DNA of 64,000 nucleotides. Origin: Burkholderiales bacterium. GTDB taxonomy: Bacteria; Pseudomonadota; Gammaproteobacteria; Burkholderiales; UBA11063. How positions within the stretch are numbered: position 1 is the stretch's first letter; every line of letters starts with the position of its first letter. A program made the position numbers and the translations under genes. The notes beneath the pieces were generated by a model. That model was not told where the DNA came from. It saw only the letters and a list, made by a program, of their open reading frames with translations, and ran no database searches. The DNA lies in NCBI GenBank assembly GCA_019748155.1, contig JAIEPY010000021.1, positions 2,958 through 66,957 of the forward strand. The letters are read 5' to 3'. Below are positions 4,247 through 19,691 of this stretch, piece after piece.

Positions 4247-4906
4247 TTAATGATTTTCAAGTTTTAATTTTCGGGCTTGCCAATCAGGCATGTGAGTTGT
4301 CAGATAGTTATAAAAATTTTTGTCGTGATTATAATGAAGCAAATGCACTAGTTCATGAAAAATAACATATTCGATAGCAAATACATGTTTTTTAATCAAA
4401 TCCAAATTTAAGTTAATATAAGATTTTTTGGGGTTACAAGAACCCCAACGAGTCTTCATCTTCCGGATCGATACTTTAGCTACTTCTTTTTTAACTATTT
4501 TAGTGTATTTGGCAATAATTTTTTTAAAATAATCCTCAGCTTTTTCTTTATACCATGTATCAATTAGCTGTATTTTTTTGTCATAGTTGGTTTTGTTGGT
4601 TAACTTGACATGAAGATAGCCGCCAATTAATTTAACGGACTCGTTGCTTGCAGTAGAGACCTTTAAACGATAATTTCGCCCCAAATATGCAAAGCTTTCC
4701 CCACTAACTAGCTCTTTTTGCGGTTGCTGAAATTTTCTAAAATAGTTTAATTGTACTAAAATCCAGTCATGGCGCTTTTTTAATACCTGATTAATTTTCT
4801 CCTGTGTGGTATTCGCTGGCACGGTCAATACCACTTCGAGCGTAGGCTTCACCTTTAGGCTAATAGTCTTTACTGACTTGTAAATAATCTGTAGATTATC
4901 GAGCAT
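4247..4906 (-). CDS. DUF45/YgjP-like M48-family metallopeptidase
   Basis: HExxH motif in FHELVHLLHYNH near the C-terminus, and typical YgjP-like length. The track ORF starts at a TTG (4960) inside hsdR. The ATG at 4906 (MLDNLQIIYKS..) is more plausible and overlaps the hsdR stop by about 11 nt. Confidence 0.75.
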   Translation of the reverse strand: MLDNLQIIYKSVKTISLKVKPTLEVVLTVPANTTQEKINQVLKKRHDWILVQLNYFRKFQQPQKELVSGESFAYLGRNYRLKVSTASNESVKLIGGYLHVKLTNKTNYDKKIQLIDTWYKEKAEDYFKKIIAKYTKIVKKEVAKVSIRKMKTRWGSCNPKKSYINLNLDLIKKHVFAIEYVIFHELVHLLHYNHDKNFYNYLTTHMPDWQARKLKLENH

Positions 4907-7900
4907 AGTTATTGATTCCGATTGAGCGAGTCGCTGCAATAACTTCAGTTGGATTGTCAAGGTGCAGAGTGAACTGTTTTTCTAAATCGTACAGAATATC
5001 ATCAATTGACTGATCAATTTGATTTCTGACATCACTATTGTGCTGCCAGTCGGGTTTTTTGGAAGCTGTTTTAAATATTTCATCAATTTGCAGGATAGTT
5101 TTAATGAACTCTTTAGGTGCTAATGTGTCCATTACTTCCTGAAGATTGTCGTAGAGTGCCTTAGCACAGCTCTTGTCGCTGATTTCGATGGGATAGCGCG
5201 AGACCTCGTCAATTTGCTTGGACATTAGCATTGTGCGAATATCTTTAGCATGTTTAAGCTTATCTTCTTCACTCATGCGCCCTTCGCGATATTCCTGAAT
5301 AATTTGCTCGATTTTTTGCGAAAGCTTGTCGTAAAAATTAGGGTTCTGCTCGTGATTTTCACGGGCAATTTTTGCAGTAGCGCTAAGAATGGTATCTGCT
5401 TTGGCATTATCTCCAACTAGCCTTTGCAGTTCCTTATCAAAATCCTCTTCAAAGATATTTACTAGCTTGGTCAGTTGATTAACCTCATTGGCGCTGATAA
5501 ATGTGTCGAGAAGCTTTTGCATTTCCCTCTCATATTTACCAAAATTAACCTCTTCCTGATAACGGATTTTGATTGCACGGCGCAGCTCACTATAAAATTT
5601 CATGGAACGCTTATATTGGTTGATTTCCTGTTCAGTTAGCACTTCATCGCTCTTATCACTGGATAACGTTAGCTTCAAAGCTCGTGCAAACAGTGAAAGG
5701 TACTCATAGAAGTTTTTACGTTTATTTTCATCAGCCAGAAATATCTGATAACTTTCCTGATCATTTTTATTGGCTACGGGTTTAAATAAATCTTGTAAAT
5801 GTGAATAGAAAGTTTTGACTTCACCAATTTCAGCCTTAATATCAATTACTGCTCCAGTTAAATCTTCTTCATCAAAGCCAGCCAAGGCGCTATATGAGGT
5901 TAAGGCTTGATCCAGATTACCCAATAAGCCACGATAATCAACGATAAAGCCATATTCTTTGCCCTCATAAAGGCGATTAATCCGTGCGATTGCTTGGAGT
6001 AAATTATGTTCTTTGAGTTCTTTATCAATATAAAGTACCGCAGCACGCGGAGCATCAAAACCAGTTAATAATTTATCCACCACAATCAATAACTCAATCT
6101 CATCGCCATCAATGAACTGACTCTTTACAGAATCTAAAAAGCTTTCTTCATCGCCGTAGCGACGTAATAACTTAGCCCATGCTTCCGTAACATAAAGTTT
6201 GTTATTTTCATCGACTTCCTCGTGCCCTTCTCGAGTATCAGAGGCAGAAATAACAAAAGCGGTTTTAATATTTCCATACATGGCAAATAATTCATGGTAT
6301 TTGATAGCTTCATATTTGCTACTGGTAGCAAGCATGGCTTTAAAACCAGTACCTTGAAAATTTTTAGTAAAGTGCTCATTGATATCCAGAGCAATCATTT
6401 CTAAGCGGCGCTCACTCGATGCAACCCGACTAAAACGTGCCCACTTTCGCTTTAAATCTGCCTTTTGTTCCGTATTTAAATCACGCGAGATCATTTCAAA
6501 ACGACGATCCAATCCAGCTTTATCACTAATCCATTGGTCAACTAAGCGCCCTTCATAGAGCAGCGGTAAAACAGCTTTATCTTTAACCGCCTGATCAATA
6601 GTGTAGCGGTGAATTAATCCGCCAAACTTTAGGATAGAGCCTTTTTCGCGTTTAAGTAGAGGGGTTCCAGTAAATCCCAGGTAACAAGCGAGAGGGAAGA
6701 CTTTTTTCATGGCTTTATGCAAATCACCACCTTGGGTACGGTGTGACTCATCAACCAGTACAAATATATTGGGGTCGCTTATCACCCATTTTTCATTTTT
6801 AACGGTATCAAATTTATGAATTAAGGTAGTTATTACGCTTAGTCCAGATTGTAGTTTCTCAATCAAATCATGCCCACTATTGGCCCGCCCAGCTTTTATT
6901 TCGCTGTTTTGAAAAGTAGTGTGGATTTGACTATCCAAGTCTTTTCTGTCGGTTACGACAATGATACGTGAACCAACAATTTCCCGTTTGAGTAATTTGG
7001 TCAGCATTGCCATTGTCAAAGATTTACCGCTGCCTTGGGTATGCCAGACTAAACCTCCGGCACGGCTACCATCCGGCGCAAAATTTTCAATTTTATGAAA
7101 GATTTCTTTAATTGCAAAATATTGCTGATAACGTGCTATTTTTTTAACGCGCTTATCAAAAAGAATGAATGAATGCAATAATTCCAGAACACGGGTTTTA
7201 CTAAATAGGCTAAATATGGTTTGATCTAGTTTGCTTGTCATACGATTGGATACTAAACCAGCTAATTGTTCCTGATTATCTTCTTCCCATACCGCATAAA
7301 ACTTGGCTGGTGTTCCTGTTGTCGCATATTGTGGATGAGAATTATTTCCAGCTAAAGTTAACTGTACATATTTAAATAGCTGTGGTATTTCGTCGTTGCC
7401 TTGATTACGGATCATTTGTGAAATACCTTGTTCGGCATTAATGCTGGATTTTTTGAGTTCAATTACCGCAAAAGGGATACCATTTATAAACAGCACCAGA
7501 TCAGGACGCCGAGTTTTATCAAATTCGCTGGTAACTTGGCGGATAACGCTATATTCTTCGGTAACATGGAAGACATTATTTTCAAAATTATCAAAATCAA
7601 TGTAACGCAAAGAGAAGCTTTTTCTATCACCATCAGCTAGTTCTTCATCATAGCTAGTACCTAAGGTCAATTTATCGCTGATTTTTTGATTAGCCGCGTT
7701 TAAACCCTCATTAAGCGGTATATTTAACTCTTCGACTGCCCGCGAGATATTTTTGGGTGAAAACTTATAATTAACTCCTTTGTATTCAAAAGAATTAATT
7801 TTTTGCAATTGGGCTAACAAAATATCTTTCAACACTACTTCATGTAAACGGTTATCGCGTAGCACAATATTGTCTTCGCGGCTAATATAAACATAGCCCA

Positions 7901-7964
7901 TTGATTTTAATAACTCTACTGTATTTTGTTGAATTGCTGATTCGTTTAAAATATTTGGATTCAC
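4896..7964 (-). CDS. hsdR: Type I restriction enzyme, R subunit
   Basis: N-terminal PD-(D/E)xK-like segment PDLVLFINGIPFAVIELKK; SF2 helicase motifs HTQGSGKSLTM (Walker A), VLVDESHRTQ (DEAH-type) and QAIARINR (motif VI). The likely start is the GTG at 7964, preceded by GGAGGTGG and overlapping the upstream stop (GTGA). The track start at 7979 is a TTG. Confidence 0.95.
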   Translation of the reverse strand: MNPNILNESAIQQNTVELLKSMGYVYISREDNIVLRDNRLHEVVLKDILLAQLQKINSFEYKGVNYKFSPKNISRAVEELNIPLNEGLNAANQKISDKLTLGTSYDEELADGDRKSFSLRYIDFDNFENNVFHVTEEYSVIRQVTSEFDKTRRPDLVLFINGIPFAVIELKKSSINAEQGISQMIRNQGNDEIPQLFKYVQLTLAGNNSHPQYATTGTPAKFYAVWEEDNQEQLAGLVSNRMTSKLDQTIFSLFSKTRVLELLHSFILFDKRVKKIARYQQYFAIKEIFHKIENFAPDGSRAGGLVWHTQGSGKSLTMAMLTKLLKREIVGSRIIVVTDRKDLDSQIHTTFQNSEIKAGRANSGHDLIEKLQSGLSVITTLIHKFDTVKNEKWVISDPNIFVLVDESHRTQGGDLHKAMKKVFPLACYLGFTGTPLLKREKGSILKFGGLIHRYTIDQAVKDKAVLPLLYEGRLVDQWISDKAGLDRRFEMISRDLNTEQKADLKRKWARFSRVASSERRLEMIALDINEHFTKNFQGTGFKAMLATSSKYEAIKYHELFAMYGNIKTAFVISASDTREGHEEVDENNKLYVTEAWAKLLRRYGDEESFLDSVKSQFIDGDEIELLIVVDKLLTGFDAPRAAVLYIDKELKEHNLLQAIARINRLYEGKEYGFIVDYRGLLGNLDQALTSYSALAGFDEEDLTGAVIDIKAEIGEVKTFYSHLQDLFKPVANKNDQESYQIFLADENKRKNFYEYLSLFARALKLTLSSDKSDEVLTEQEINQYKRSMKFYSELRRAIKIRYQEEVNFGKYEREMQKLLDTFISANEVNQLTKLVNIFEEDFDKELQRLVGDNAKADTILSATAKIARENHEQNPNFYDKLSQKIEQIIQEYREGRMSEEDKLKHAKDIRTMLMSKQIDEVSRYPIEISDKSCAKALYDNLQEVMDTLAPKEFIKTILQIDEIFKTASKKPDWQHNSDVRNQIDQSIDDILYDLEKQFTLHLDNPTEVIAATRSIGINNYAR

Positions 7965-9319
7965 TTTACCACCTCCCAATAACCACCTTTAGCACTACCA
8001 ACCCGACGGAGTAGGCCAAGTTCTTTTAGTTTCTTGATATTATTTCTGATGTTCTTCTCATTTATTTGGATAATTTCAGATAGTTGCAGCTGTGTTATAT
8101 GTGAATTTTCAGCGATTAACTCAAGTATTTTTAGCTGATTTGAATTTAAATGTTTTTCTAGGTCTTTTTCTAGGTCTTTTTCTAGGTCTGCATTAAAATA
8201 AAACTCAACCCACAAGCCATTAAGCCATCTAAACTTTGGAACTATTTCGTTAAATTTTTGTGACTCTGCCACAATTTTTTCTATCCCGCGCCCCCATGAT
8301 TCTATATAACCAGCGAGAAAGAACGGATAAGCAAGAGCCGGATTAAATGGTTCAGAATTATGTTTTTGTAAAAGTGTGTCAACTGTCCAATGTGCTGGCA
8401 ATTCGCCGGGATTCCACATTAATAGCTTGTCATCATATACGCTTATTTGTATCGTATGTTGTGAAGCATAATCTTTATGAACGACAGCATTAATTAGCGC
8501 TTCTCTAAATGCTAGCTCGGAGATTGGAAAGCTCTCAACTCTTTGAATACCATCATACGTAATTAATGCTTTGAGATATTTGCTAAAAATAAGCTCGAGC
8601 GTTTTATCAACTTGTTCAAAAAGGTTACCTGTAACTACATCTTGATAGATTAAATCGCTATTTGATTTAAAATAGCCAATTTTAATTGAGCTTCCCGTCA
8701 CATAGCGCTCGGGATCTTTGGCAAAAAGTAAAGTTGCGGCACGTTTAAAATAATTGCCTTCTTTTAAATGCAGCTTGTCGATCAGGATATGATCATCCTC
8801 ATTTAAGAGATTGGCATCAATTCTTTTCTTTTTGGTAGCTTTGGCGCGGAAAAGCTTAAATGCAAATGGATCTAAATCCTCATCACCAAAATATGGCACG
8901 GGTACACCATCCCATTTTTTACCTTGGCGCGACAACAAAAATTTATCCAGTGCTGCCCCTTTAAACTCATGGGTACTACTTCCACTGCGATAATAATATG
9001 AACCTTTATAACTTACTGGATATGGATAAGCCTCAACACTGATTTCAAGATAATTCTTATTTTCAGCGATTTTCAGCTTAACTTCGACCATAATCCCTAA
9101 AATATCACGGACTTTATTCGGAATATCTGCTAATAGTTTAGCGGTGTTTTCAATGCCAACGATGATACCATTATCGGCAATACCAATATAAAGCGTTCCA
9201 CCTGCGCTATTCGCAAATGCACTTATCCACTTGATATACTCATCTTTCCATAGTTGCTTAAACTCGATGTTTTGTGATTCGTTTTGTTGAATTACTAATT
9301 TGTTAGTGCTCGGTGTCAT
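7961..9319 (-). CDS. AlbA_2 (Schlafen-type divergent AAA) + HATPase_c_4-like + C-terminal winged-HTH protein
   Basis: 452 aa. N-terminus ESQNIEFKQLW..ISAFANSAGGTLYIGI is typical of AlbA_2. The central REALINAVVHKDY..GRGIEKI resembles HATPase_c_4. The C-terminal LKILELIAENSHITQLQLSEII..LKELGLLRRVG looks like a wHTH. The stop overlaps the hsdR start. Confidence 0.7.
   Translation of the reverse strand: MTPSTNKLVIQQNESQNIEFKQLWKDEYIKWISAFANSAGGTLYIGIADNGIIVGIENTAKLLADIPNKVRDILGIMVEVKLKIAENKNYLEISVEAYPYPVSYKGSYYYRSGSSTHEFKGAALDKFLLSRQGKKWDGVPVPYFGDEDLDPFAFKLFRAKATKKKRIDANLLNEDDHILIDKLHLKEGNYFKRAATLLFAKDPERYVTGSSIKIGYFKSNSDLIYQDVVTGNLFEQVDKTLELIFSKYLKALITYDGIQRVESFPISELAFREALINAVVHKDYASQHTIQISVYDDKLLMWNPGELPAHWTVDTLLQKHNSEPFNPALAYPFFLAGYIESWGRGIEKIVAESQKFNEIVPKFRWLNGLWVEFYFNADLEKDLEKDLEKHLNSNQLKILELIAENSHITQLQLSEIIQINEKNIRNNIKKLKELGLLRRVGSAKGGYWEVVK
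8152..8187. repeat. 3 x 12-bp perfect tandem repeat (TTTTTCTAGGTC) encoding (DLEK)3 in a linker
   Basis: Read directly from the sequence. It lies in frame inside the 452-aa gene, between the ATPase-like region and the wHTH. Confidence 0.9.
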
Positions 9320-9337
9320 AAAATAAACTTTATAAAA

Positions 9338-9946
9338 TTATTGTAATTTACGAATCGCTTCATTATACGCATTATTCATTTCAAGAAGTCCGTCATTCAA
9401 AAAATAAATTACGTTATCACTCAAGAGTTTACTTGCTTTATTACGTTCATTACGATAACCTTCTTGATCATAGATATAGTACGTTGATAACGCTTCTTGA
9501 GATTTAAGAAATTTGTTCCAAAAAGTTTGCATCGCCATACTTATCTCTGTTGCTCCAAATTTATCAGCTCTAAGTTTTAAAATCATTAATTTACCTTTTA
9601 GCTCTAGATAATTTGGGATGATATCTTCAATCTTTTCATTATTGTTTTTCATTATTCCAAGATATTTGGGAAAAGGAAAACTATTTTGATATTTAGTCCA
9701 AGTATCAAAGAAATCTTCCATGTGTTCAGTATATTGTCTAATTATCATTTGGTGAGTTTGCTTTTTACTTATTTTATATGTAAAATATGCAAATATGCTT
9801 GCAGGGATTGCAACTAGAGTTGTTGAGTCAATATCTTTAACAAAACTAAAGTTATAAAGCTTAGCAATAATCAGAATAATTGATGACGTAGCAAACATAA
9901 TGACTAGTATATCTGCCGTATCATACAACAATGTTTTAACTTTCAT
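9338..9946 (-). CDS. hypothetical membrane protein: N-terminal 2-TM hairpin plus helical soluble tail
   Basis: 202 aa. Hydrophobic segments at about residues 12-31 and 42-59, then about 140 aa rich in K/E/N/Y with no motif I recognise. Gaps of 15 and 18 nt to its neighbours inside the R-M operon. Confidence 0.6.
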   Translation of the reverse strand: MKVKTLLYDTADILVIMFATSSIILIIAKLYNFSFVKDIDSTTLVAIPASIFAYFTYKISKKQTHQMIIRQYTEHMEDFFDTWTKYQNSFPFPKYLGIMKNNNEKIEDIIPNYLELKGKLMILKLRADKFGATEISMAMQTFWNKFLKSQEALSTYYIYDQEGYRNERNKASKLLSDNVIYFLNDGLLEMNNAYNEAIRKLQ

Positions 9947-9961
9947 TTTTTCAATATCTCT

Positions 9962-10867
9962 TTATGCGGCAATTATCTTGCTTGAATTACTTTCTCGCTG
10001 TTTACCAGTAAGTTCCCCAGTATAAAAAGCCTCATTTAATACTTTAATTAATACTGTAATATCTTTATTTTTCTTAACCTGATATTTATCGTTGTCTTTT
10101 TCCAATGTTACAACATTCTGATATCTATTAATATATTCGATTAGTCTCTGGTTTTCTATTTCAAAATTTTGCTCAATAAGAAATCTAATATGCTTTAGAT
10201 TAGATGGTTCTATTTTTATGGTTAGATCTATGTTGAATATTTCAGAGTTATTAATTTTATCTATAAATAAACTTTGTTGCTCTTTACTTGCTTCTTTATA
10301 TAGTTCAGTAAATTCGCTATGTATATTTTTTAAGTGTGCAAAGCTTTTGAAGTATATTTTATGGTCTGCTTTGTTTATACAAATATCAACCCGATTATAT
10401 ACCTCTAAGCGATTACTTTCTTCTTGATAGATTACGTGATCATTTATGCAACTAAGGAAATGAGTGTTTTCAACATATTTTGCTTTTGTAATATGCTGTA
10501 AATTCATGATAGTTTGCTCGTGCTCATTAACCAAATAACTACAAATCCATAACACCGAAGATAATTCTGTTTTGCTTATGTTACTAATAGTTGCGGTTTG
10601 ATCTGTAATATTATATATATTATCGATGGATTGTTGGATTTTTACTTTAATTTGTGGATCAATATTATCATCATCATAGCTTATATAGAAAAACTGATTA
10701 TTATCTAATTTGTACGAAGGATTATCTAGAAAATTAATGCTCTCAATGTCTTCATTTATAGGATAAATAAATAGTTGCTGATTCGAATTTTTAAATTTTT
10801 CTATATCATCTGTTCTGTCTAGTAGCTTTCTAAACTGTTGGTTTTTTAACTGAGCAATAATTGTCAT
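9962..10867 (-). CDS. soluble 301-aa protein, candidate KwaB-like (DUF4868) Kiwa component
   Basis: ATG preceded by AGGAGA and overlapping the upstream stop (TAATG). Size and position after a small 4-TM protein match KwaB. The C-terminal ..VLIKVLNEAFYTGELTGKQRESNSSK.. resembles my recollection of DUF4868 C-termini. Not verified by any profile search. Confidence 0.45.
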   Translation of the reverse strand: MTIIAQLKNQQFRKLLDRTDDIEKFKNSNQQLFIYPINEDIESINFLDNPSYKLDNNQFFYISYDDDNIDPQIKVKIQQSIDNIYNITDQTATISNISKTELSSVLWICSYLVNEHEQTIMNLQHITKAKYVENTHFLSCINDHVIYQEESNRLEVYNRVDICINKADHKIYFKSFAHLKNIHSEFTELYKEASKEQQSLFIDKINNSEIFNIDLTIKIEPSNLKHIRFLIEQNFEIENQRLIEYINRYQNVVTLEKDNDKYQVKKNKDITVLIKVLNEAFYTGELTGKQRESNSSKIIAA

Positions 10868-11430
10868 TATTCATTATCTCCTGTATCTATAAAAAGGTAT
10901 TCATCTAATTTTTTGATTAAAATGGCTGTTGGTTGTGCTAGTTTTATGTTTTTACGTTTACTTAATAATAAAAAACCTGCATAGTCAGTTTCAATTTTAT
11001 ACATCCGCCAGCCCAGTACGTATGCAATTGGATTTAAGAATGCTATATTACACATATAAAACAATATAAATAAAAAAGCGAGCAGAATAATTGACAATGT
11101 TGTTGTACTTGTATTTATTGATAATGCTACAAAAATGATACCTAAATACGATGGCATATATTCCGTATATACGGGATATATTTTTGTTACTATGATATTA
11201 TCGGTGCTTAACCAATTATATATATTAGGCAACCAAGTATAAAAAATAATACTTACAACTAGCCAAGTCAATAGAATGCTTACAATAATCCAATGTTTTA
11301 TAGAATAATTTATCAATTCAGCCCAAGAGCTATAGTTAAAATGAGAATTATTGGCAAAGTATAATAAAATTATCCAAAAAAATGATAATATAGTAACAAA
11401 AGTCTTTAGCGATATTTCCTTTAAGTTCAT
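10867..11430 (-). CDS. small 4-TM membrane protein, candidate KwaA-like Kiwa component
   Basis: 187 aa. Hydrophobic helices at about residues 9-26, 46-66, 92-105 and 110-131, plus a soluble tail of about 55 aa. The ATG overlaps the hsdS stop (ATGA). Confidence 0.45.
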   Translation of the reverse strand: MNLKEISLKTFVTILSFFWIILLYFANNSHFNYSSWAELINYSIKHWIIVSILLTWLVVSIIFYTWLPNIYNWLSTDNIIVTKIYPVYTEYMPSYLGIIFVALSINTSTTTLSIILLAFLFILFYMCNIAFLNPIAYVLGWRMYKIETDYAGFLLLSKRKNIKLAQPTAILIKKLDEYLFIDTGDNE

Positions 11431-12656
11431 ACCCGAACTTGCCCTGTTAATAGTTTTTGCACTAGCGATTGTTTTTGTAGTTTTAGTTGGTTTAATATTT
11501 CAGTTTGCTTGGTAGTTTCATCATCAATGCGGGTTAAAAAATCTGCGATTTTGGTTTGCTCGTCCAAATAACAACTAACAGTTATAAGAAATTTTTCTAA
11601 AGTAGATTTTTGAATATTTGGTAATCCTGATCCAACTCTTAGCAGCATAATTTTGGACTCTTGGTATTTTAATAAATAAAATAAATATTCATTTTGCACT
11701 GCTTTTGTAGCAACAGTATAGCAATGACCACCAGCCCAAAATTTATTTTTTACAAAACTAACATAACCGCAAGAGTTACCACCTTCGCTAACCGTTATAG
11801 AATTCTCAGTGTTATATTTATCTGTAAGACCAGAGTAATCAGTTCCTCCATTTAATACAGGATATATTCCATCATCAAGCATGTGTACTTTATTAAGTTG
11901 TTCACCTTTTTTAATTATACAAATATCACCAAGTTTTTTGGTTTGCCAAGCGGGGTAATCATTGCCATTATCGTCTTTGAAGCGGATTTTCTGGCTGAAA
12001 ATCTGCTGCATGACACCTTTTTTGAAAACTTGCTTTTGCTTAATTAATTGCTCTTGTTTGGCAATAGCATCATCCCAAGTTGATAACATCTCAGCAATTT
12101 TTTCTTGTTCTTTCAGTGGTGGTAATATAAAAGGTAAACTCCTTTGCTCAGTTATACCTATATAAGCTCTAGTTCCTCCACCTGCTATTTCTTGTAACTT
12201 TTGTTGAAATATTTTGCTCAAAAAATATTGAAAAATATAATGGCGATTAAGTTGTGAGTGATCTTTTACTCGGTAGTATGTTACTTGTGGTGTTAACATA
12301 ATATAATCAGTGTATAAATTTTTCACCATAACTACATTTCCTACTGTACCCTTATGTGTTAATAGTACATCTCCAGTGATTGAAAAACCTTTTTGTAATC
12401 TATCTGCTTGCTTTTTTGTTATAAAAGCACAGTTTTCTAAATCTAAAATACCATTTCTAACATTATTTGCCATAATAAATGGTATTCCACTAGCCACAAA
12501 ATCACTACTTTTAGGATGTATGTCACCATGATTTCCATCTAACGGCTTATATAAATAGCTCATATTCACCAGTTGATTAATCGTCAGTACATCCCAATCC
12601 TCAGGAATAATCCCAAGCTTAGTTTGCTTATATCCTTGTGGTATCTGCTTAGTCAT
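11427..12656 (-). CDS. hsdS: Type I restriction enzyme, S (specificity) subunit, full length with two target-recognition domains
   Basis: 409 aa with the two conserved coiled-coil spacers: LPPLKEQEKIAEMLSTWDDAIAKQEQLIKQKQ in the middle and LDEQTKIADFLTRIDDETTKQTEILNQLKLQKQSLVQKLLTGQVRV at the C-terminus. Confidence 0.9.
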   Translation of the reverse strand: MTKQIPQGYKQTKLGIIPEDWDVLTINQLVNMSYLYKPLDGNHGDIHPKSSDFVASGIPFIMANNVRNGILDLENCAFITKKQADRLQKGFSITGDVLLTHKGTVGNVVMVKNLYTDYIMLTPQVTYYRVKDHSQLNRHYIFQYFLSKIFQQKLQEIAGGGTRAYIGITEQRSLPFILPPLKEQEKIAEMLSTWDDAIAKQEQLIKQKQVFKKGVMQQIFSQKIRFKDDNGNDYPAWQTKKLGDICIIKKGEQLNKVHMLDDGIYPVLNGGTDYSGLTDKYNTENSITVSEGGNSCGYVSFVKNKFWAGGHCYTVATKAVQNEYLFYLLKYQESKIMLLRVGSGLPNIQKSTLEKFLITVSCYLDEQTKIADFLTRIDDETTKQTEILNQLKLQKQSLVQKLLTGQVRV

Positions 12657-13515
12657 TCAATTTCTCCAATATTGCCACGCTGGCATTATCCATCTTGCTA
12701 AAAGCAAACCATTTTTTGCCAAGATCTTTAAGACTTGCGCCAATGTGATAAACCTCATTATCAATTAGCAAAAATCTATCATGTGATAAATCAAACTCTT
12801 TAATCGTGAGGTTATTATATTGAGCTTTATATTTTTGTACATCTAAAGCTAGTTGTTTGCTAATAGTTTTGGTATAGATTGTAATTGTTATATTTGGGTT
12901 TTTGCTAAATAGGGTTAATACCGTGTCATCAATGTAGTTGTCTAGTAATATAATTGACTGGCGAGCACGTTTAATTAAATCACTAACAAAAGCATAAGCA
13001 TCGTAAATCTGCCCCTCAAAAAATATCCCTTGTGAGGGTTGTATTTCTTTTGACTCAAGTGCTTCAAAAATTTTACTAAAGTGATCATCATGTTTAAGTA
13101 ATTTCATCTCTATATTTTCAAGTCGTTGAAATATTCCCGTATTTTGAGCGATAAACTTCCGCATAGTAACAAATGCTCGAATAATTTTTATACTCATGTT
13201 TACCGCTGAATCTGTCTTTAAGACAGAAGCTAACATTGACACACCTTGCTCGGTGAATACTAGTGGCGAACTACCGCCTAAATGCTGCTTGGAAGGTATC
13301 GCATTTTGCGATACCATAAAATCAACCTCACTATCGTTTAGCACAAACATAAAATCTTCAGGGAATCTATCAATATTTCTTTTTACCTGCTCCCTAAGCC
13401 TTATCGGTTTTACCCCATAAAGCACCGCTATATCTTTATCGAGCATAACTTGCAAGTTTCTAATCGTGTAAATTTTATTTTGAATGTTCTGTTCATCGAT
13501 AATTAGCTCATTCAT
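12649..13515 (-). CDS. ORF6N (KilA-N-like) domain protein with conserved C-terminal HDRF..GASLKDLGKKWF module
   Basis: The N-terminus IYTIRNLQVMLDKDIAVLYGV..LREQVKRNIDRFPEDFMF is typical ORF6N. The C-terminal SHDRFLLIDNEVYHIGASLKDLGKKWFAFSKM block recurs in R-M-associated ORF6N proteins. Confidence 0.7.
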   Translation of the reverse strand: MNELIIDEQNIQNKIYTIRNLQVMLDKDIAVLYGVKPIRLREQVKRNIDRFPEDFMFVLNDSEVDFMVSQNAIPSKQHLGGSSPLVFTEQGVSMLASVLKTDSAVNMSIKIIRAFVTMRKFIAQNTGIFQRLENIEMKLLKHDDHFSKIFEALESKEIQPSQGIFFEGQIYDAYAFVSDLIKRARQSIILLDNYIDDTVLTLFSKNPNITITIYTKTISKQLALDVQKYKAQYNNLTIKEFDLSHDRFLLIDNEVYHIGASLKDLGKKWFAFSKMDNASVAILEKLND

Positions 13516-13832
13516 TATTTAACCCCAATATTATCTAACTTCACACCACCACACGCATAGCGTGTTAGCATAATATCTTGAATCGGACGTTCTGCACCAG
13601 AACCAAGCGCTACCATTTTCGTGACGTCACGAAAATGGTCTGCACAATTTGATCCAGCTGTTTCGCAGCTATTTTTTGCTTTAGTGATGACGTTCTCAAA
13701 ATTCTCCCACCGCTCATAATCCAAGATCTTTTGCAAATCACGTGCATACCAATATTCAATCGCACTGTTTTCTACTTGATGTGCCAACGAATTAAAGCTA
13801 GCTTGTAATTGTGTGATTAGTTCAGCATTCAT
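13515..13832 (-). CDS. DinD (DNA-damage-inducible protein D) N-terminal fragment, probably a gene remnant
   Basis: 105 aa. The segment ..YWYARDLQKILDYERWENFENVITKAKNSCETAG..HFRDVTKMV..IQDIMLTRYAC matches the N-terminal third of E. coli DinD as I recall it. It then ends abruptly. Confidence 0.55.
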   Translation of the reverse strand: MNAELITQLQASFNSLAHQVENSAIEYWYARDLQKILDYERWENFENVITKAKNSCETAGSNCADHFRDVTKMVALGSGAERPIQDIMLTRYACGGVKLDNIGVK

Positions 13833-13834
13833 GA

Positions 13835-15175
13835 TTACACCTTTATTTTTTTTGATAATGGAGTTTTTGTGGTCAACTTTTTCTCACTGGATTTTGCTTT
13901 ACGCTCAAGTTTTTGGATATCTTCTACTGTCGGCAAATCTTCGGGCATTGTTCCGCCTAATTCCTGAATAGTTTCACGTACTTTTTTGCCAACTTCATAA
14001 TAGGTTTGATTAGCCTGTACCTTGTTTTGTATTTCATCACGTTTTAGTTTTTCTTCGGTTTGAGTGGCTCGGAATAAATTAGCAGCCAATTCAGTACTAT
14101 TCATATGATCTAAGATCTTTTGAGATTTTTGTAATCCCTTATGCTTATGTATGCTTTTTGCATCTAATCCGCCATATAAGCCTTTATCGCCTCCATTTAT
14201 TTGCTTGGCTATTTGCTCTAATTCTGCTATATCATCTTCATTGGCTTGTTCTAGTTCTTGAGTTTGACGGTGTTTATCAAATAAAGCATAACGCTCTTCG
14301 GCTAATTGTTTGGCTACGCTTGCTCTTATTGTTCCAGCATGAGTTAGTAATTCGCGCTCGTTAAAGCTCAGGAAGGCATCAACTTTTTGTTCCCATTCCG
14401 CCATAGTTATAGCTTTGCGTTTTTTTGCCTGATCTTCGGCATAGTCCAGATACATGGTTACAATCCGGTTAAGCTCGTCAACTTCTTGTTGTGAAAGATA
14501 GTTTTTAGCAGTATCGACATCCATTTTTCTAACTTTTGAACCTATCCATGAGGTTAAGCCCATATTGGTTAATTCTGGATTGCTCCGGTTAGCAATAATT
14601 TCGGCAGCAGTATGACCAGTTACCGCCCACAGCATTCTATTTTGAACTTTTTTAAAGAATAATTTAGCCTGATCATCGTCTTTGTTGTAATCAATTGCGG
14701 TAATATAGAGGTCTTTAATTTTCTGGTAAAAGCGCTTTTCCGATGCTCTAATTTCACGGATGCGGGCTAACCATTCATCGAAGTAATCCCACCGTGTAGC
14801 TTGTTTGAGGCGAGCATCGTCCATAGCAAAACCTTTGATAAGGTACTCTTTGAGGATAGTGGTAGCCCAGATTCTAAAGTGAGTAGCGCTATTACTATTA
14901 ACTCGATAACCTATAGAGATGATAGCATCAAGATTATAGTGCTTTGTTTTATATTTTTTACCATCCGTCGCAGTTGTCAAGAAATCCTTGACAACTGAAT
15001 TTTCATCCAGTTCGCCACTTTCAAAGATATTTTTTACATGCAAACTAATATTCTGCTTGGTGGTATCAAATAACTCAGCAATTTTTTGCTGCGAAAGCCA
15101 AATAGTCTCATTTTCCAGTAAAATTTCTACTTTTATGTCTTTATTTGGTGTTTTATATAAAATGATTTCACTCAT
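13835..15175 (-). CDS. RhuM-family protein fused to a DinD C-terminal domain (chimera)
   Basis: Residues 1 to about 325 are a classic RhuM core (IWLSQQKIAELF..YNLDAIISIGYRVNS..HFRIWATTILKEYLIKGF..IRASEKRFYQK..RIVTMYLDYAE). From GLYGGLDAKSIHKHKGLQKSQKILDHMNSTELAANLFRATQTEEKLKRD..QELGGTMPEDLP it matches the DinD C-terminus. Confidence 0.75.
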   Translation of the reverse strand: MSEIILYKTPNKDIKVEILLENETIWLSQQKIAELFDTTKQNISLHVKNIFESGELDENSVVKDFLTTATDGKKYKTKHYNLDAIISIGYRVNSNSATHFRIWATTILKEYLIKGFAMDDARLKQATRWDYFDEWLARIREIRASEKRFYQKIKDLYITAIDYNKDDDQAKLFFKKVQNRMLWAVTGHTAAEIIANRSNPELTNMGLTSWIGSKVRKMDVDTAKNYLSQQEVDELNRIVTMYLDYAEDQAKKRKAITMAEWEQKVDAFLSFNERELLTHAGTIRASVAKQLAEERYALFDKHRQTQELEQANEDDIAELEQIAKQINGGDKGLYGGLDAKSIHKHKGLQKSQKILDHMNSTELAANLFRATQTEEKLKRDEIQNKVQANQTYYEVGKKVRETIQELGGTMPEDLPTVEDIQKLERKAKSSEKKLTTKTPLSKKIKV

Positions 15176-15176
15176 C

Positions 15177-16664
15177 TTATAACCCCAGCTCTTTGAGATA
15201 GTTATTCATCTTGATTTTTATTTCAGCCAATTCCACCTCTAATTGTACAATTTTAGTCTTTGTTGCATCCAGATCAATAGGCTCTTCTTCCTCAAAGGTA
15301 TCAACATAGCGAGGAATATTTAGATTATAGTCATTTTCTTTGATTTCTTCAATTGTTGCAATATGTGAATATTTCTCAATTTCTTCGCGATTATGATAAG
15401 TCTCTAAGATTTTAGCTAATTGTGTATCGTTAAGACTGTTTTGATTTTTAGCTTTATCAAAGTCATTACTGGCATCAATAAATAGTATCTCTTGATGTTG
15501 ACGGTTCTTTTTGAACACTAAAATACAGGCTGGAATACTTGTTCCAAAGAATAAATTAGCTGGTAAGCCAATCACCGCATCGAGTAAATTTTCATCAATA
15601 AGTTTTTGGCGGATTTTACCCTCGCTAGAACCACGGAATAAAACGCCATGCGGTAAAACTACACTCATGCGCCCATTTTCATTTAGACTTTGGATCATAT
15701 GAATAACAAAAGCATAGTCTCCTTTGCTTTTAGGTGGTACAGCAAAATTTGTAAAGCGCTTAAATGGGTCTTTCTCGACATTATCCGCGCCCCATTTATC
15801 AAGACTGAATGGTGGATTTGCCACGATAACATCAAACTTCATTAAGTGATCATTTTCTAAATGCAGCGGGTTGCCAATTGTGTCACCCCATGCAATTTTG
15901 GCATCATTTATCTCATGCAAATACATATTCATTCGACATAATGCTTGAGTTTGTCCGTTGCGCTCTTGTCCATAAATCGCAAAATTGTTATTGCCAACTT
16001 CTTTAGCGGCTTTAATTAATAACGAGCCAGATCCACAAGTTGGGTCATAGATGCGATCTCCTTCTTTGGCGGCTACTAATTTAGCAAGCAAGGTTGAAAC
16101 TTCGCTGGGAGTAAAAAATTCACCGCCTTTTTTGCCTGCATCGCTAGCAAAATGAGAGATTAAGTACTCGTAACTATTACCGATAATATCCATATTGTCT
16201 AGGCATGAAGGTCTTAAATCCAGTCGAGTATCGCTAAAATCCTCAAGTAAATTTTTTAATATGCTATTACGTTCTTTGGTATCACCTAACATCTGACGGT
16301 TATTAAAATCAACATTTCTAAAAATGCCTTCGAGTTTTTCAATATTATCTTCTTCAATTCTGGCGAGGGCTTTATTAATTATTTCGCCAAGGTTATCAGC
16401 TTCTTTATTTTTTAATAAATATTCAAAAGTGCAAGAGTTATCAAGAATAAATTTTTCTCGTTCCAGTGCCCGTTTAATGCGTTCTACATCGCCATCATAT
16501 CTAGCGCTAATTTGCTCTAGCTTTTCTTTATAAAAATCAGAAAGATACTTTACAAATAACATACTTAGAATGTAATCTTTATATTGTGAGCTATCCATTG
16601 TTCCACGAAAAGTATCACAGGCTTTCCATACGACATTATTAATAATATCTTGAGTTGTCTTCAT
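15177..16664 (-). CDS. hsdM: Type I restriction enzyme, M subunit (N6-adenine DNA methyltransferase)
   Basis: SAM-binding motif I DPTCGSGSLL, catalytic motif IV VANPPFS and an N-terminal HsdM_N-like region. AAGGA Shine-Dalgarno upstream. Confidence 0.95.
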   Translation of the reverse strand: MKTTQDIINNVVWKACDTFRGTMDSSQYKDYILSMLFVKYLSDFYKEKLEQISARYDGDVERIKRALEREKFILDNSCTFEYLLKNKEADNLGEIINKALARIEEDNIEKLEGIFRNVDFNNRQMLGDTKERNSILKNLLEDFSDTRLDLRPSCLDNMDIIGNSYEYLISHFASDAGKKGGEFFTPSEVSTLLAKLVAAKEGDRIYDPTCGSGSLLIKAAKEVGNNNFAIYGQERNGQTQALCRMNMYLHEINDAKIAWGDTIGNPLHLENDHLMKFDVIVANPPFSLDKWGADNVEKDPFKRFTNFAVPPKSKGDYAFVIHMIQSLNENGRMSVVLPHGVLFRGSSEGKIRQKLIDENLLDAVIGLPANLFFGTSIPACILVFKKNRQHQEILFIDASNDFDKAKNQNSLNDTQLAKILETYHNREEIEKYSHIATIEEIKENDYNLNIPRYVDTFEEEEPIDLDATKTKIVQLEVELAEIKIKMNNYLKELGL

Positions 16665-16682
16665 CTTTATATATCCTTGCCT

Positions 16683-17252
16683 TTATTTGATAAGAGTTTC
16701 AAAAATTTCAGTTTTAAGTTGGTTTTTTTCATTAATAAGTTTATTGAGTAAATCAATTTCCTGATTCGCAGCATCTATGTAATTGACTATTTTTTGTTGC
16801 TTCTCAAGCGGTGGCAGATTAATCTCCAACTCCATTAAATCAGCCGTTTTTATCATTGGGATTGCGGTACCTTGAGTTACTAATTTATTTTGAGTAAACT
16901 GCAAATTTAAATAGTATGTCAAATATTTACTATCCAGTAGGTTAGGGAAGATATTAGTTATAATTGCCATTAGTGATGATACCATTAGCCCTGTGTTGTT
17001 ATCATTTATAAAAATTGCGTGATTTGGTGAACGTAACCGGACAATAACATCATTTTCTTTGGTTAAATATTGTGTACCAATTTTGGTGCTTGCCGTAAAG
17101 TGTTCATATGGTAGTTCTCCTAAATCATTTGAGCTCACAAATGATTTTAGGGTTAAAGCCTTGTAGTCAATTGTATTTGTGCTTGCCAAATTAGCCTTTT
17201 TACGTTCAAGTGATAGACCAATTCTTACATCTGTTAATTCTTTAAGCTTCAT
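16683..17252 (-). CDS. hsdS: half-size Type I S subunit (single target-recognition domain plus one conserved helix)
   Basis: One variable domain followed by LPPLEKQQKIVNYIDAANQEIDLLNKLINEKNQLKTEIFETLIK. The probable start is the ATG at 17252 (MKLKELTD..), preceded by GAGAGG. The track start at 17282 is less likely. Confidence 0.75.
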   Translation of the reverse strand: MKLKELTDVRIGLSLERKKANLASTNTIDYKALTLKSFVSSNDLGELPYEHFTASTKIGTQYLTKENDVIVRLRSPNHAIFINDNNTGLMVSSLMAIITNIFPNLLDSKYLTYYLNLQFTQNKLVTQGTAIPMIKTADLMELEINLPPLEKQQKIVNYIDAANQEIDLLNKLINEKNQLKTEIFETLIK

Positions 17253-17510
17253 TTTTTTACCTCTCATGGCGTAGTTTAACATAAACTATGTGCTATAAGT
17301 TTAAATATAGCAATAATTTTATGAGAAGGCTATATTGGTGAGTTTAATGATTAGTTTACGCTGGCTACGGACAGCGCTCATTTAGAAGGTGTATGTCGAC
17401 TGTTAGCCCTTGATAGGAATAAATAAGTCTATGCAAGAGCGTCCACCGTGAGGGATAGTCTGAAGGGAGTAAATGGCGTAGTTTGCGTGATGAACAGGAA
17501 TTAGATAGAA

Positions 17511-17530
17511 AGTGCATAAAAATATGCACT
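17511..17530 (-). terminator. candidate terminator hairpin downstream of tdk
   Basis: Perfect 8-bp stem AGTGCATA/TATGCACT with a 4-nt loop, about 75 nt after the tdk stop. It is followed on the minus strand by a moderately T-rich run (TTCTATCT). Confidence 0.35.
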
Positions 17531-19641: not shown

Positions 19642-19691
19642 GTTATTGTACTCCTTAACCCGTTATTTTAACACTTGTGGCTCTGCTTTAC

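What the first reader, a model, noticed from the sequence alone, without database searches (positions are those of the whole stretch)
4247..17282. 13-kb co-directional Type I R-M operon interleaved with eight passenger genes (defence-island architecture without mobility genes)
Seen: twelve minus-strand ORFs from about 17252 down to 4247 are separated by 18 nt or less, or overlap. Overlaps are ATGA at 11427-11430, TAATG at 10865-10869 and 13513-17, GTGA at 7961-7964, and an 8-nt overlap at 12649-12656. The gene order is half-hsdS, hsdM, RhuM-DinD chimera, DinD fragment, ORF6N protein, full hsdS, 4-TM protein, 301-aa protein, 2-TM protein, AlbA_2/ATPase-like/wHTH protein, hsdR, DUF45 peptidase. 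The flanks are core metabolism (kbl-tdh on the left, upp-tdk on the right). No integrase, transposase, tRNA or obvious direct repeat marks either border. The 9.3-11.4 kb stretch is visibly more AT-rich than the flanks. Knowledge: the slots between Type I hsd genes are known to host anti-phage passengers, PrrC being the classical example. Inference: the passengers are likely defence or regulatory modules that ride on R-M transcription. At least the 9338-11430 block has no established function here.
Basis: partly seen in the sequence, partly recalled or inferred. Interest (0 to 1): 0.75.

Follow-up and report, generated by a model that had tools for sequence, protein, structure and literature searches.

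The report
Restriction operon carrying swappable defence genes
This is a bacterial restriction-modification operon with other anti-virus genes slotted between its own genes, including a hard-to-recognise copy of the known Kiwa system; the layout is a known one, but a sister strain shows the cargo being exchanged.

Summary
Twelve tightly packed minus-strand genes (17282 to 4247) form a Type I R-M backbone, half-hsdS, hsdM, hsdS, hsdR and ygjP/DUF45, with two cargo slots.

- **Slot 1** holds a rare RhuM–DinD-C chimera, a DinD-N fragment and an ORF6N protein. These are PADLOC candidate families PDC-S05 and PDC-S13.
- **Slot 2**, the AT-rich "no function" block, starts with a divergent Kiwa system. 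The 4-TM protein is KwaA-like. The 301-aa protein has the KwaB fold (Foldseek E 2e-10, KwaB structures only) and joins the KwaB family by profile (hhalign E 2.5e-49), although curated HMMs miss it.
- **After Kiwa** come an orphan membrane protein and a Schlafen–GHKL–wHTH protein.

A sister strain (L048, 95–97% identical, same tdk…tdh site) carries AbiP2 in place of Kiwa plus the orphan, and different HsdS recognition domains. Other relatives carry Avs2, Fic or PDC-S60 in this slot. In 7 of 8 loci this Kiwa subclade sits directly after hsdS.

Defence genes embedded in Type I R-M operons are already described (Payne 2024). I file this as a new member of a known kind, of moderate interest. No function was tested experimentally.

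The parts
16683..17282 (-). Half-size HsdS with a single target-recognition domain. It is the first gene of the operon. The start is probably ATG 17252.
   Evidence: Pfam Methylase_S 2.9e-15 and PADLOC Specificity_I. Conserved at the same position in L001, L004 and L048. dN/dS 0.135 against L001.
15177..16664 (-). HsdM, the N6-adenine methyltransferase subunit.
   Evidence: Pfam N6_Mtase 1.2e-114 plus HsdM_N. The NPPF motif is readable in the translation. 96.6% identical to the L048 protein.
13835..15175 (-). Slot 1 cargo: a RhuM core (residues ~2-327) fused to a DinD C-terminal domain (~290-440).
   Evidence: Pfam Virulence_RhuM 2.5e-106. PADLOC PDC-S05 7e-138 and PDC-S13 5e-45. NCBIfam DinD positions 130-283. 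Among the 120 best of 8000 RhuM matches only two span the full length. The gene is absent from L001.
13515..13832 (-). Slot 1 cargo: a stand-alone DinD N-terminal (Bro-N-like) domain of 105 aa.
   Evidence: NCBIfam DinD positions 2-93, 3.5e-36, and PADLOC PDC-S13 1.3e-37. Conserved in L001 and L048. dN/dS 0.127.
12649..13515 (-). Slot 1 cargo: an ORF6N (KilA-N-like) DNA-binding domain with an uncharacterised C-terminal domain.
   Evidence: Pfam ORF6N 4.3e-30. PADLOC PDC-S05 model PDLC04869, full length, 2.7e-114. PHROG anti-repressor families. dN/dS 0.064.
11427..12656 (-). Full-length HsdS with two target-recognition domains.
   Evidence: Pfam Methylase_S, two stretches, 9.7e-44. Both recognition domains differ from L048, while the N-terminal, central and C-terminal conserved regions match.
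10867..11430 (-). Slot 2 cargo: a divergent KwaA, the four-TM Kiwa membrane subunit.
   Evidence: PADLOC KwaA, four models, best 1.3e-7. NCBIfam KwaA full length 3.9e-6, below its cut-off. The only two PDB sequence matches (E 0.19 and 0.21) are KwaA chains (9mrg, 9o0i). Four hydrophobic segments. Homologues at 27-36% identity precede every KwaB-like relative, and several are annotated Pfam PF28043.
9962..10867 (-). Slot 2 cargo: a divergent KwaB (DUF4868 fold).
   Evidence: No direct Pfam, PADLOC or NCBIfam hit. 118 relatives in the representative library. 59 of 80 relatives hit PADLOC KwaB, best 6.8e-57. hhalign of the subclade against the rest of the family gives probability 100% and E 2.5e-49. 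The AF2 model has pLDDT 95. The six best Foldseek PDB hits are all KwaB, E 2e-10, TM about 0.6, and the next hit has E 0.1. dN/dS 0.098.
9338..9946 (-). Slot 2 cargo: an orphan membrane-anchored helical-bundle protein of 202 aa.
   Evidence: No meaningful hit in Pfam (weak chance-level matches only, all below curated cut-offs), and none in PADLOC, NCBIfam or PHROGs. AF2 pLDDT 84: a TM hairpin followed by a helical bundle. No significant Foldseek hit against PDB or BFVD. Only six homologue clusters were found, and every one with readable context lies between hsdS and hsdR. dN/dS 0.17-0.21.
7961..9319 (-). Schlafen/AlbA_2 plus GHKL-type ATPase (HATPase_c_4) plus C-terminal winged HTH.
   Evidence: Pfam SLFN_AlbA_2 6e-18, HATPase_c_4 2.8e-16 and HTH_24 2.4e-7. 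PADLOC matches the SLFN-GHKL part of a pAgo model. phrog_12156 4.9e-77. An E14-x4-E19-x-K21 motif is readable in the translation. 97.8% identical in L048.
4896..7979 (-). HsdR, the restriction/translocase subunit. An alternative start is GTG 7964.
   Evidence: NCBIfam hsdR 9e-147. Pfam HSDR_N, SWI2_SNF2 and T1R_D3-like. PD...ELK, GSGKS and DESH motifs are readable in the translation.
4247..4906 (-). YgjP-like/DUF45 (SprT/WLM-like) metallopeptidase, a conserved partner of hsdR.
   Evidence: Pfam YgjP-like 4.5e-60, with an HELVH motif in the translation. Overlaps hsdR in L004, L006 and L048. dN/dS 0.11.
9284..12589 (.). Recombination-exchanged block: the HsdS recognition domains plus Kiwa plus the orphan gene. 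It coincides with the AT-rich stretch.
   Evidence: L048 matches the window at 95.6% down to 12589 and at 97.0% from 9283 onward. Between those points it carries a different hsdS and AbiP2. GC of the block is 28.9%.
17283..17603 (-). Intergenic region of 320 nt between tdk and the first hsd gene. This is the presumed promoter region, and synteny with the nearest species ends here.
   Evidence: Synteny with L007-L010 stops at the tdk stop codon, 17604/17605. The promoter itself was not demonstrated.

Best explanation
The region is a chromosomal Type I restriction-modification operon. Its backbone is half-hsdS, hsdM, [slot 1], hsdS, [slot 2], hsdR, ygjP. The two internal slots act as exchange points for other anti-phage genes.

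Slot 1 carries Bro-N/KilA-N-type candidate defence genes: a RhuM-DinD-C chimera, a DinD-N fragment and an ORF6N protein.

Slot 2 carries three things. First, a divergent two-gene Kiwa system: KwaA, a four-TM membrane protein, and KwaB, a DUF4868-fold DNA-binding protein. Second, an orphan membrane-anchored helical protein. Third, a Schlafen-GHKL-wHTH protein.

By analogy with characterised relatives, the layers would work as follows. HsdM2S methylates host DNA and HsdR2M2S cuts unmodified incoming DNA. Kiwa senses membrane perturbation at phage entry and KwaB binds the entering DNA, blocking replication and late transcription. The Schlafen-type protein is a candidate tRNA-cleaving abortive-infection effector.

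The tight or overlapping junctions suggest one transcript with translational coupling, so every layer would be expressed together.

Cargo is renewed by homologous recombination between conserved backbone segments. This swaps the HsdS recognition domains and the downstream cassette in one step.

Shown here: gene identities, folds, purifying selection, the allelic swap and the recurrent hsdS-kwaAB linkage. Inferred: co-transcription, all biochemical activities and anti-phage function.
For: - **Backbone identities:**
- **KwaB identity:** 118 relatives. 59 of 80 relatives hit PADLOC KwaB and 23 of 80 hit Pfam KwaB. 3 of 9 closest relatives hit KwaB at 1e-9 to 1e-11. hhalign gives probability 100% and E 2.5e-49. 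The AF2 model has pLDDT 95, and Foldseek finds only KwaB structures at E 2e-10 or so.
- **KwaA identity:**
- **Purifying selection:** dN/dS is 0.04-0.21 for all shared genes.
- **Allelic swap:** L048 lies at the same tdk...tdh site with 95-97% identical flanks and carries AbiP2 (PADLOC 6.9e-190) in place of Kiwa plus the orphan, with both HsdS recognition domains different.
- **Slot 2 cargo in homologous operons:** Avs2 (E = 0), PDC-S60, Fic/PDC-S04 and a small unannotated protein.
- **Linkage:** this KwaB subclade follows hsdS directly in 7 of 8 independent loci.
- **Island distribution:** it is absent downstream of tdk in the four nearest species.
- **Published framework:** embedded defence genes in Type I R-M operons (10.1101/2024.01.29.577857; PMC11411939; PMC12255303). 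Kiwa mechanism (PMC11785009). R-M-associated Schlafen-ATPase proteins and tRNA cleavage.
Against: - No experiment supports activity of any gene here.
- The window's KwaB is only 12-14% identical to solved KwaB structures. It fails every curated HMM directly, and KwaA is below NCBIfam's cut-off, so the pair could have a modified function.
- RhuM, DinD and ORF6N families are only defence candidates. ORF6N also matches phage anti-repressor families.
- Co-transcription is untested. The AT-rich cassette contains promoter-like hexamers, although no more than shuffled sequence does.
- The sample of subclade loci is small (8) and comes mostly from short metagenomic contigs.
Confidence: 0.78

Rival explanations
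1. The Kiwa-like pair is not an autonomous defence system here. It has been recruited as an accessory of the Type I enzyme, for example by localising or licensing restriction at the membrane entry site, or by soaking up DNA-mimic anti-restriction proteins. On this view its linkage to hsdS reflects functional dependence.
For: The subclade follows hsdS directly in 7 of 8 loci, often with overlapping stop and start codons. The HsdS recognition domains and the Kiwa cassette were exchanged together relative to L048. Canonical Kiwa cooperates with RecBCD through partitioning of the DNA mimic Gam (PMC11785009).
Against: One subclade member (L040/L041) lies outside any hsd context. The sister strain keeps the same backbone without Kiwa, so the R-M system does not need it. 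Canonical Kiwa works alone when cloned, and Ocr was tested but only Gam was reported as inhibitory. The co-swap with hsdS could simply reflect where homology for recombination exists.
Confidence: 0.12
2. Some passengers, especially RhuM-DinD-C, DinD-N and ORF6N in slot 1, are not defence effectors. They would be phage-derived DNA-binding regulators or decaying recombination debris that hitch-hikes in a recombination-prone spot.
For: ORF6N matches PHROG anti-repressor families. DinD is split, with its C-terminal domain fused upstream to RhuM and its N-terminal domain left as a 105-aa ORF. The chimera is rare. L001 lacks the RhuM gene entirely. A divergent patch at 14800-15600 shows ongoing recombination.
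Against: All slot 1 genes shared with relatives are under purifying selection: DinD-N 0.13 and ORF6N 0.06. These families are among the commonest genes embedded in Type I R-M, and they form PADLOC candidates PDC-S05 and PDC-S13. RhuM is strongly enriched next to hsdS genes, and a fused dinD-plus-RhuM CDS has been seen elsewhere (PMC9881135).
Confidence: 0.15
3. The twelve genes are several independent transcription units that merely share orientation. The low-GC Kiwa/orphan cassette would bring its own promoter.
For: The cassette is a recent import with different composition, 27% GC. Promoter-like hexamers occur at 11243-11215 and 10994-10965 on the minus strand. The 15- and 18-nt gaps flank the orphan gene.
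Against: Promoter-like sites are no more frequent than in shuffled sequence (57 against 61 ± 10), and no terminator-like structure lies in any junction. Seven junctions overlap or are 2 nt or less apart. Internal promoters would not exclude read-through from the hsd promoter.
Confidence: 0.2

Closest known systems
Defence genes embedded in Type I R-M operons ('guilt-by-embedding', Payne et al. 2024, bioRxiv 10.1101/2024.01.29.577857). Worked examples are PrrC in EcoprrI, TgvAB in V. cholerae VPI-2 (PMC11411939) and DarTG2 between hsdS and hsdR in EPEC (PMC12255303).
   Same: Foreign defence genes sit between hsdM, hsdS and hsdR in the same orientation. The hsdS-hsdR gap is used as the insertion slot. 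RhuM (PDC-S05) and DinD (PDC-S13) are families defined by that approach.
   Different: Here two slots are filled at once with seven genes. One cargo is a Kiwa system that current HMMs do not call. No RptR-like regulator gene precedes the operon. A natural sister allele shows the exchange directly.
Kiwa (KwaA/KwaB) of E. coli (Doron 2018; Zhang, Todeschini et al., PMC11785009; PDB 9mrx, 9mtn, 9nyu)
   Same: A two-gene kwaA-kwaB order with overlapping stop and start codons. KwaA has four hydrophobic helices and is about 190 aa long. KwaB is about 300 aa with the same fold over its full length.
   Different: KwaB is 12-14% identical to the solved KwaB structures, with TM about 0.6. It is not detected by Pfam PF16162, PADLOC or NCBIfam. 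The subclade is usually placed directly after hsdS, whereas published Kiwa loci are described mainly on prophages, plasmids and genomic islands.
Prokaryotic Schlafen-GHKL ('Schlatpase') proteins associated with R-M systems (bioRxiv 10.64898/2026.05.29.728809; PMC13462974, cluster 7)
   Same: AlbA_2/Schlafen domain plus PF13749 ATPase plus an HTH, encoded next to restriction genes. The E-x4-E/D-x-K spacing of the catalytic triad is present.
   Different: No member of this short HTH-bearing, R-M-linked group has a demonstrated trigger or activity. tRNA cleavage is known only for the Cash and SLFN-pAgo relatives.
PrrC anticodon nuclease guarded by a Type I R-M enzyme
   Same: A latent RNA-cleaving suicide effector is encoded inside an hsd operon, and the Schlafen-type gene overlapping hsdR could play a similar role.
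   Different: No gene here matches PrrC: PADLOC gave no PrrC hit. The analogy is functional speculation only.

Membership tests
Type I restriction-modification system | HsdM with an N6-adenine methyltransferase domain and an NPPF motif | tested here: met
   Pfam N6_Mtase 1.2e-114 plus HsdM_N 2e-29. 'ANPPFS' is readable in the translation.
Type I restriction-modification system | HsdS with two target-recognition domains separated by conserved helical regions | tested here: met
   Pfam Methylase_S, two stretches, 9.7e-44. Alignment with L048 shows two variable domains between conserved N-terminal, central and C-terminal regions.
Type I restriction-modification system | HsdR with an N-terminal PD-(D/E)xK nuclease and an SF2 translocase | tested here: met
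   NCBIfam hsdR 9e-147. Pfam HSDR_N, SWI2_SNF2 and T1R_D3-like. PD...ELK, GSGKS and DESH motifs are readable in the translation.
Type I restriction-modification system | Sequence-specific methylation and ATP-dependent restriction activity | not testable with these tools
   Requires a methylome or restriction assays.
Kiwa (KwaA/KwaB) | KwaA: a small integral membrane protein with four TM helices, homologous to KwaA | tested here: met
   Four hydrophobic segments. PADLOC KwaA, four models, best 1.3e-7. NCBIfam KwaA 3.9e-6 over the full length but below the curated cut-off (26.8 against 100 bits). The only two PDB sequence matches are KwaA chains, at E 0.19 and 0.21. Orthologues next to related KwaB genes carry Pfam PF28043.
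Kiwa (KwaA/KwaB) | KwaB: a DUF4868-domain protein passing the curated family HMMs | tested here: not met
   No Pfam PF16162, PADLOC KwaB or NCBIfam hit at E <= 0.01 for the window protein itself.
Kiwa (KwaA/KwaB) | KwaB: homology and fold of DUF4868/KwaB by profile and structure | tested here: met
   59 of 80 relatives hit PADLOC KwaB. 3 of 9 closest relatives hit it. hhalign gives probability 100% and E 2.5e-49. Foldseek top six hits are all KwaB at E 2e-10 to 7.5e-9, and nothing else falls below E 0.1.
Kiwa (KwaA/KwaB) | kwaA immediately upstream of kwaB in one operon | tested here: met
   A 1-nt overlap, TAATG. The same pairing occurs in all 8 subclade loci.
Kiwa (KwaA/KwaB) | KwaA4-KwaB2 supercomplex, DNA binding by KwaB, anti-phage and anti-conjugation activity | not testable with these tools
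PADLOC PDC-S05 / PDC-S13 (RhuM- and DinD-type embedded candidates) | A match to the family HMMs and a position embedded in a multi-gene defence system | tested here: met
   PDC-S05 7e-138 (RhuM) and 2.7e-114 (ORF6N protein). PDC-S13 1.3e-37 and 5e-45. All lie between hsdM and hsdS.
Schlafen-GHKL ('Schlatpase') proteins | AlbA_2/Schlafen domain followed by a PF13749 GHKL-type ATPase | tested here: met
   Pfam SLFN_AlbA_2 6.2e-18 (residues 14-118) and HATPase_c_4 2.8e-16 (residues 289-364).
Schlafen-GHKL ('Schlatpase') proteins | Catalytic E-D/E-K triad of active Schlafen nucleases | tested here: inconclusive
   E14-x4-E19-x-K21 has the same spacing as CbCash E17-D22-K24. This was judged by eye only, not by structural alignment.
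PrrC-type R-M-guarded anticodon nuclease | A PrrC homologue (ABC-ATPase plus anticodon nuclease domain) between hsd genes | tested here: not met
   None of the twelve proteins matched a PrrC model in the PADLOC tables. Those tables show only the best 25 families for five of the proteins, all of which have clear other identities.

The most novel reading that the evidence does not exclude
The hsdS-linked Kiwa subclade may be a specialised partner of Type I R-M enzymes rather than a random passenger. Its near-obligatory position directly after hsdS, and its co-exchange with the HsdS recognition domains, could reflect functional coupling. One possibility is membrane-site sensing that hands incoming DNA to the restriction complex. 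Another is partitioning of anti-restriction DNA mimics between KwaB and the M2S complex. Separately, the orphan 202-aa membrane protein is so far found only between hsdS and hsdR, next to Kiwa, Avs2 or a small unannotated protein. It could be a new single-gene membrane defence or sensor module.
Probability: 0.15. Interest if true: 0.65.

Novelty: new member of a known kind. Interest (0 to 1): 0.4.

Why it matters
The locus shows directly how a Type I R-M operon serves as a docking frame for other immune systems. Two near-identical strains differ by a single recombination tract. That tract replaces Kiwa plus an orphan gene with the AbiP2 reverse transcriptase and changes the restriction specificity at the same time.

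It also exposes a blind spot in current tools. A whole Kiwa subclade lies at or below the detection limit of PADLOC, Pfam and NCBIfam, so Kiwa and 'embedded known systems' are under-counted in censuses.

The recurrent hsdS-kwaAB linkage and the slot-restricted orphan membrane protein give two concrete, cheap targets for phage-challenge experiments.

Tried and rejected
- **Word-index search for the 301-aa protein:** it found only two near-identical proteins. The exhaustive HMMER scan was needed.
- **PDB sequence searches with the 301-aa protein and its 80-sequence profile:** both found nothing. Only the fold comparison linked it to KwaB.
- **The search for related loci with KwaB alignments A1 and A2:** I could therefore not run a genome-wide census of hsdS adjacency. 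I used eight look-ups by exact protein instead.
- **An 'empty site' between tdh and tdk in the nearest species:** not found. Synteny ends at the tdk stop codon and each species differs downstream. The insertion could only be framed by the sister allele L048.
- **Border repeats, tRNA and integrase as island markers:** none found.
- **The orphan 202-aa protein:** Pfam even at E <= 1, PADLOC, NCBIfam, PHROGs, and Foldseek against PDB and BFVD gave no significant relative. The four-helix-bundle resemblance to chemoreceptor ligand-binding domains (E 0.12) was rejected as generic.
- **The orphan as a third Kiwa component:** rejected. It occurs without Kiwa in L004 and L006, and Kiwa occurs without it in L002, L040, L043 and L045.
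- **PDB sequence searches for the RhuM and ORF6N proteins:** no informative hits.

Full report
**1. Observation**

The twelve minus-strand ORFs between 17282 and 4247 exist as described. The junctions, in transcription order, are +18, +1, +2, -1, -8, -4, -1, +15 and +18 nt. The last two are overlaps: GTGA if hsdR starts at GTG 7964, and 11 nt if DUF45 starts at ATG 4906.

No terminator-like hairpin lies in a junction. Promoter-like and terminator-like sites are no more frequent than in shuffled sequence.

The flanks are kbl-tdh on the left and tdk-upp on the right. The only tRNA is at 32117, and no direct or inverted repeat marks the borders.

GC content is 27.3% over 9338-11430, against 34.3% for the island and 37.2% for the window.

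The window comes from a Burkholderiales/Neisseriaceae-like MAG. The 202-aa protein is 100% identical to NCBI 'K2X04_02830, Burkholderiales bacterium'.

**2. Backbone**

Four genes are a complete Type I R-M set:

| Gene | Coordinates | Main evidence |
|---|---|---|
| HsdM | 15177-16664 | N6_Mtase 1.2e-114 |
| HsdS, two recognition domains | 11427-12656 | Methylase_S 9.7e-44 |
| HsdR | 4896-7979 | NCBIfam hsdR 9e-147 |
| Half-size HsdS | 16683-17282 | Methylase_S 2.9e-15 |

The YgjP/DUF45 metallopeptidase (4247-4906) overlaps hsdR here and in every homologous operon I retrieved: L004, L006 and L048. The half-hsdS precedes hsdM in L001, L004 and L048. I therefore read the backbone as half-hsdS, hsdM, [slot 1], hsdS, [slot 2], hsdR, ygjP. 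That leaves seven passengers rather than eight.

**3. Slot 1 (12649-15175)**

- The 446-aa protein is a RhuM core (Pfam 2.5e-106; PADLOC PDC-S05 7e-138) fused to the C-terminal half of DinD (NCBIfam DinD positions 130-283; PDC-S13).
- The next ORF is the N-terminal, Bro-N-like part of DinD (DinD positions 2-93).
- The third ORF is an ORF6N/KilA-N-type protein. It matches a PDC-S05 model over its full length, at 2.7e-114.

The chimera is real and rare. Among the 120 best of 8000 RhuM matches, only an identical protein and one 86% relative span the full length. The rest are about 335 aa. L001 lacks the gene altogether.

RhuM-family genes are known to be enriched next to hsdS, and a CDS combining dinD and RhuM domains between hsd core genes has been noted before (PMC9881135). 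RhuM is also one of the most abundant embedded families in Payne et al..

**4. Slot 2: the 'no function' block contains Kiwa**

*KwaA-like protein (187 aa).* It has four hydrophobic segments. It matches four PADLOC KwaA models (best 1.3e-7). It matches NCBIfam KwaA over its full length at 3.9e-6, below the curated cut-off. Its only two PDB sequence matches, at E 0.19 and 0.21, are KwaA chains.

*KwaB-like protein (301 aa).* It hits nothing directly. The evidence for KwaB is indirect but consistent:

- An exhaustive HMMER scan found 118 relatives.
- Of 80 aligned relatives, 59 match PADLOC KwaB (best 6.8e-57) and 23 match Pfam KwaB.
- Three of its nine closest relatives match KwaB at 1e-9 to 1e-11.
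- A profile of the subclade aligns to a profile of the rest of the family with probability 100% and E 2.5e-49 over 275 columns.
- The AlphaFold2 model has pLDDT 95.
- Foldseek against the PDB returns only KwaB entries (9mrx_D, 9mtn, 9nyu) at E 2e-10 to 7.5e-9 and TM about 0.6 over the full length. The next hit has E 0.1.

Every related KwaB gene is preceded by a homologue of the window's KwaA at 27-36% identity. Several of these carry Pfam PF28043 KwaA in the precomputed annotation. The pair is thus a divergent Kiwa that PADLOC-style rules would not call.

**5. The other two slot 2 genes**

*The 202-aa orphan.* It has no meaningful relative in any family library. Its model (pLDDT 84) is a membrane hairpin followed by a helical bundle. 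It has no significant structural neighbour in PDB or BFVD. Only six homologue clusters were found. Where context is readable, the gene lies between hsdS and hsdR:

- after Kiwa (window, L001);
- after a 165-aa protein with no family match, which I suspect only by eye to be PIN-like (L004);
- directly after hsdS and before Avs2 (L006).

It is therefore not a Kiwa component.

*The 452-aa protein.* It combines Schlafen/AlbA_2, a GHKL-type ATPase (PF13749) and a winged HTH. This is the 'Schlatpase' architecture. A 2026 preprint reports that most such proteins are small, with or without an HTH. A 2026 paper reports Schlafen-ATPase-DNA-binding proteins as tightly associated with R-M systems and shows tRNA cleavage by a related Schlafen. 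An E14-x4-E19-x-K21 motif has the spacing of the published E17-D22-K24 catalytic triad. I checked this by eye only.

**6. Comparative evidence for cargo exchange**

L048 is a 60-kb metagenomic contig with the same chromosomal neighbourhood. Upstream are the oligopeptide-type ABC transporter genes, a GCV_T-like gene, upp and tdk. Downstream are a 123-aa ORF and tdh.

It matches the window at 95.6% from 25172 down to 12589, and at 97.0% from 9283 down to 3181. Between those points it differs in two ways:

- HsdS has both recognition domains different, with 46% overall identity. The N-terminal, central and C-terminal regions are conserved.
- It carries a 503-aa reverse transcriptase that matches PADLOC AbiP2 at 6.9e-190, in place of KwaA, KwaB and the orphan.

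The exchanged tract, 9284-12589, coincides with the AT-rich stretch (28.9% GC). A second divergent patch, at 69-88% identity, lies at 14800-15600 on the hsdM/RhuM junction.

Slot 2 cargo in homologous or related hsd operons:

| Locus | Slot 2 cargo |
|---|---|
| L006 | orphan + Avs2 |
| L004 | 165-aa unannotated protein + orphan |
| L043 | Kiwa + PDC-S60 |
| L045 | Kiwa + Fic/PDC-S04 |
| L002 | Kiwa alone |

Counting independent loci of this KwaB subclade, 7 of 8 place kwaAB directly after hsdS. These are the window, L001, L002, L042, L043, L045/46 and L047. The exception is L040/41.

All genes shared with L001 or L006 are under purifying selection, with dN/dS 0.04-0.21.

**7. Island borders**

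In the four nearest species (Tdk 95-97% identical), synteny runs from about 26.9 kb to the tdk stop codon and then stops. Each species has different genes downstream:

- L007: housekeeping genes;
- L008: an integrase, a phage replisome organiser and a T4SS coupling protein;
- L009 and L010: hydrolases followed by yidC, with rnpA also seen in L010.

None has hsd, kbl or tdh within 10 kb. The 3' side of tdk is thus a variable spot. The hsd island is confined to the window/L048 lineage at this position.

The same backbone occurs in other contexts. In L004 it lies between RND efflux genes, and in L006 it lies close to an integrase gene.

**8. Mechanism: shown and inferred**

Shown: gene identities, folds, selection, the allelic swap and the linkage statistics.

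Inferred from characterised relatives:

- Methylation and restriction by the hsd enzyme.
- Kiwa sensing membrane disturbance through KwaA, with KwaB binding entering DNA to block replication and late transcription (PMC11785009).
- A possible tRNA-cleaving abortive role for the Schlafen-type protein.

Inferred from spacing: co-transcription and translational coupling.

**9. Relation to what is known**

Embedding of defence genes in Type I R-M, BREX and DISARM operons is established. It is the basis of 'guilt-by-embedding' and of the PDC families (10.1101/2024.01.29.577857). Experimental cases include TgvAB and DarTG2.

The new points here are three:

- a near-undetectable Kiwa subclade that is usually hsdS-linked;
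- a natural pair of alleles documenting a one-step swap of specificity and cargo;
- an orphan membrane protein restricted to this slot.

I file the locus as a new member of a known kind, with moderate interest (0.40).

Noticed in passing
window 12649-13515 (C-terminal half, about residues 157-287): The C-terminal domain of the ORF6N protein contains 'HDRFLLIDNEVYHIGASLKDLG'. By eye this resembles a single HxK(x)4D...GSxN phospholipase-D/Nuc-type motif with K replaced by R. NCBIfam gives a weak VPA1262_N-domain hit (8.7e-9, below cut-off). It may be a PLD-like nuclease effector.
   Followed up: partly
L008:10683-16764: In a close relative (Tdk 95% identical), a tyrosine integrase lies immediately downstream of tdk, followed by a phage replisome organiser and a T4SS coupling-protein-like gene. 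The 3' side of tdk is therefore also used by an integrative element in this lineage.
   Followed up: partly
window 14800-15600: This patch is only 69-88% identical to L048, while the surroundings are 94-99% identical. It spans the hsdM 3' end and the RhuM 5' end, which suggests a separate recombination tract in slot 1.
   Followed up: partly
window 19678-19696, compared with L007:7171-8520 (also L008-L010): The four nearest species carry about 1.3 kb of extra sequence between the ABC-transporter ATPase gene and the GCV_T-like gene. The window and L048 lack it.
   Followed up: no
L004:3817-4311 and L004:7890-8354: The homologous operon in GCA_947446595.1 is preceded by a small PLDc_2 protein. 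It has a full-length DinD (281 aa) followed by a second, free-standing DinD-C-like 154-aa ORF. This is another sign that DinD modules are shuffled in slot 1.
   Followed up: partly
window 3668-4039 (+): A 123-aa ORF lies between tdh and the island. It has no family match but is conserved in L048. I could not decide whether it belongs to the flank or to the island.
   Followed up: no
window 16683-17282: A half-size hsdS upstream of hsdM is conserved alongside a full-length hsdS in all homologous operons, with dN/dS 0.135. It may provide a second, palindromic specificity as a homodimer.
   Followed up: no
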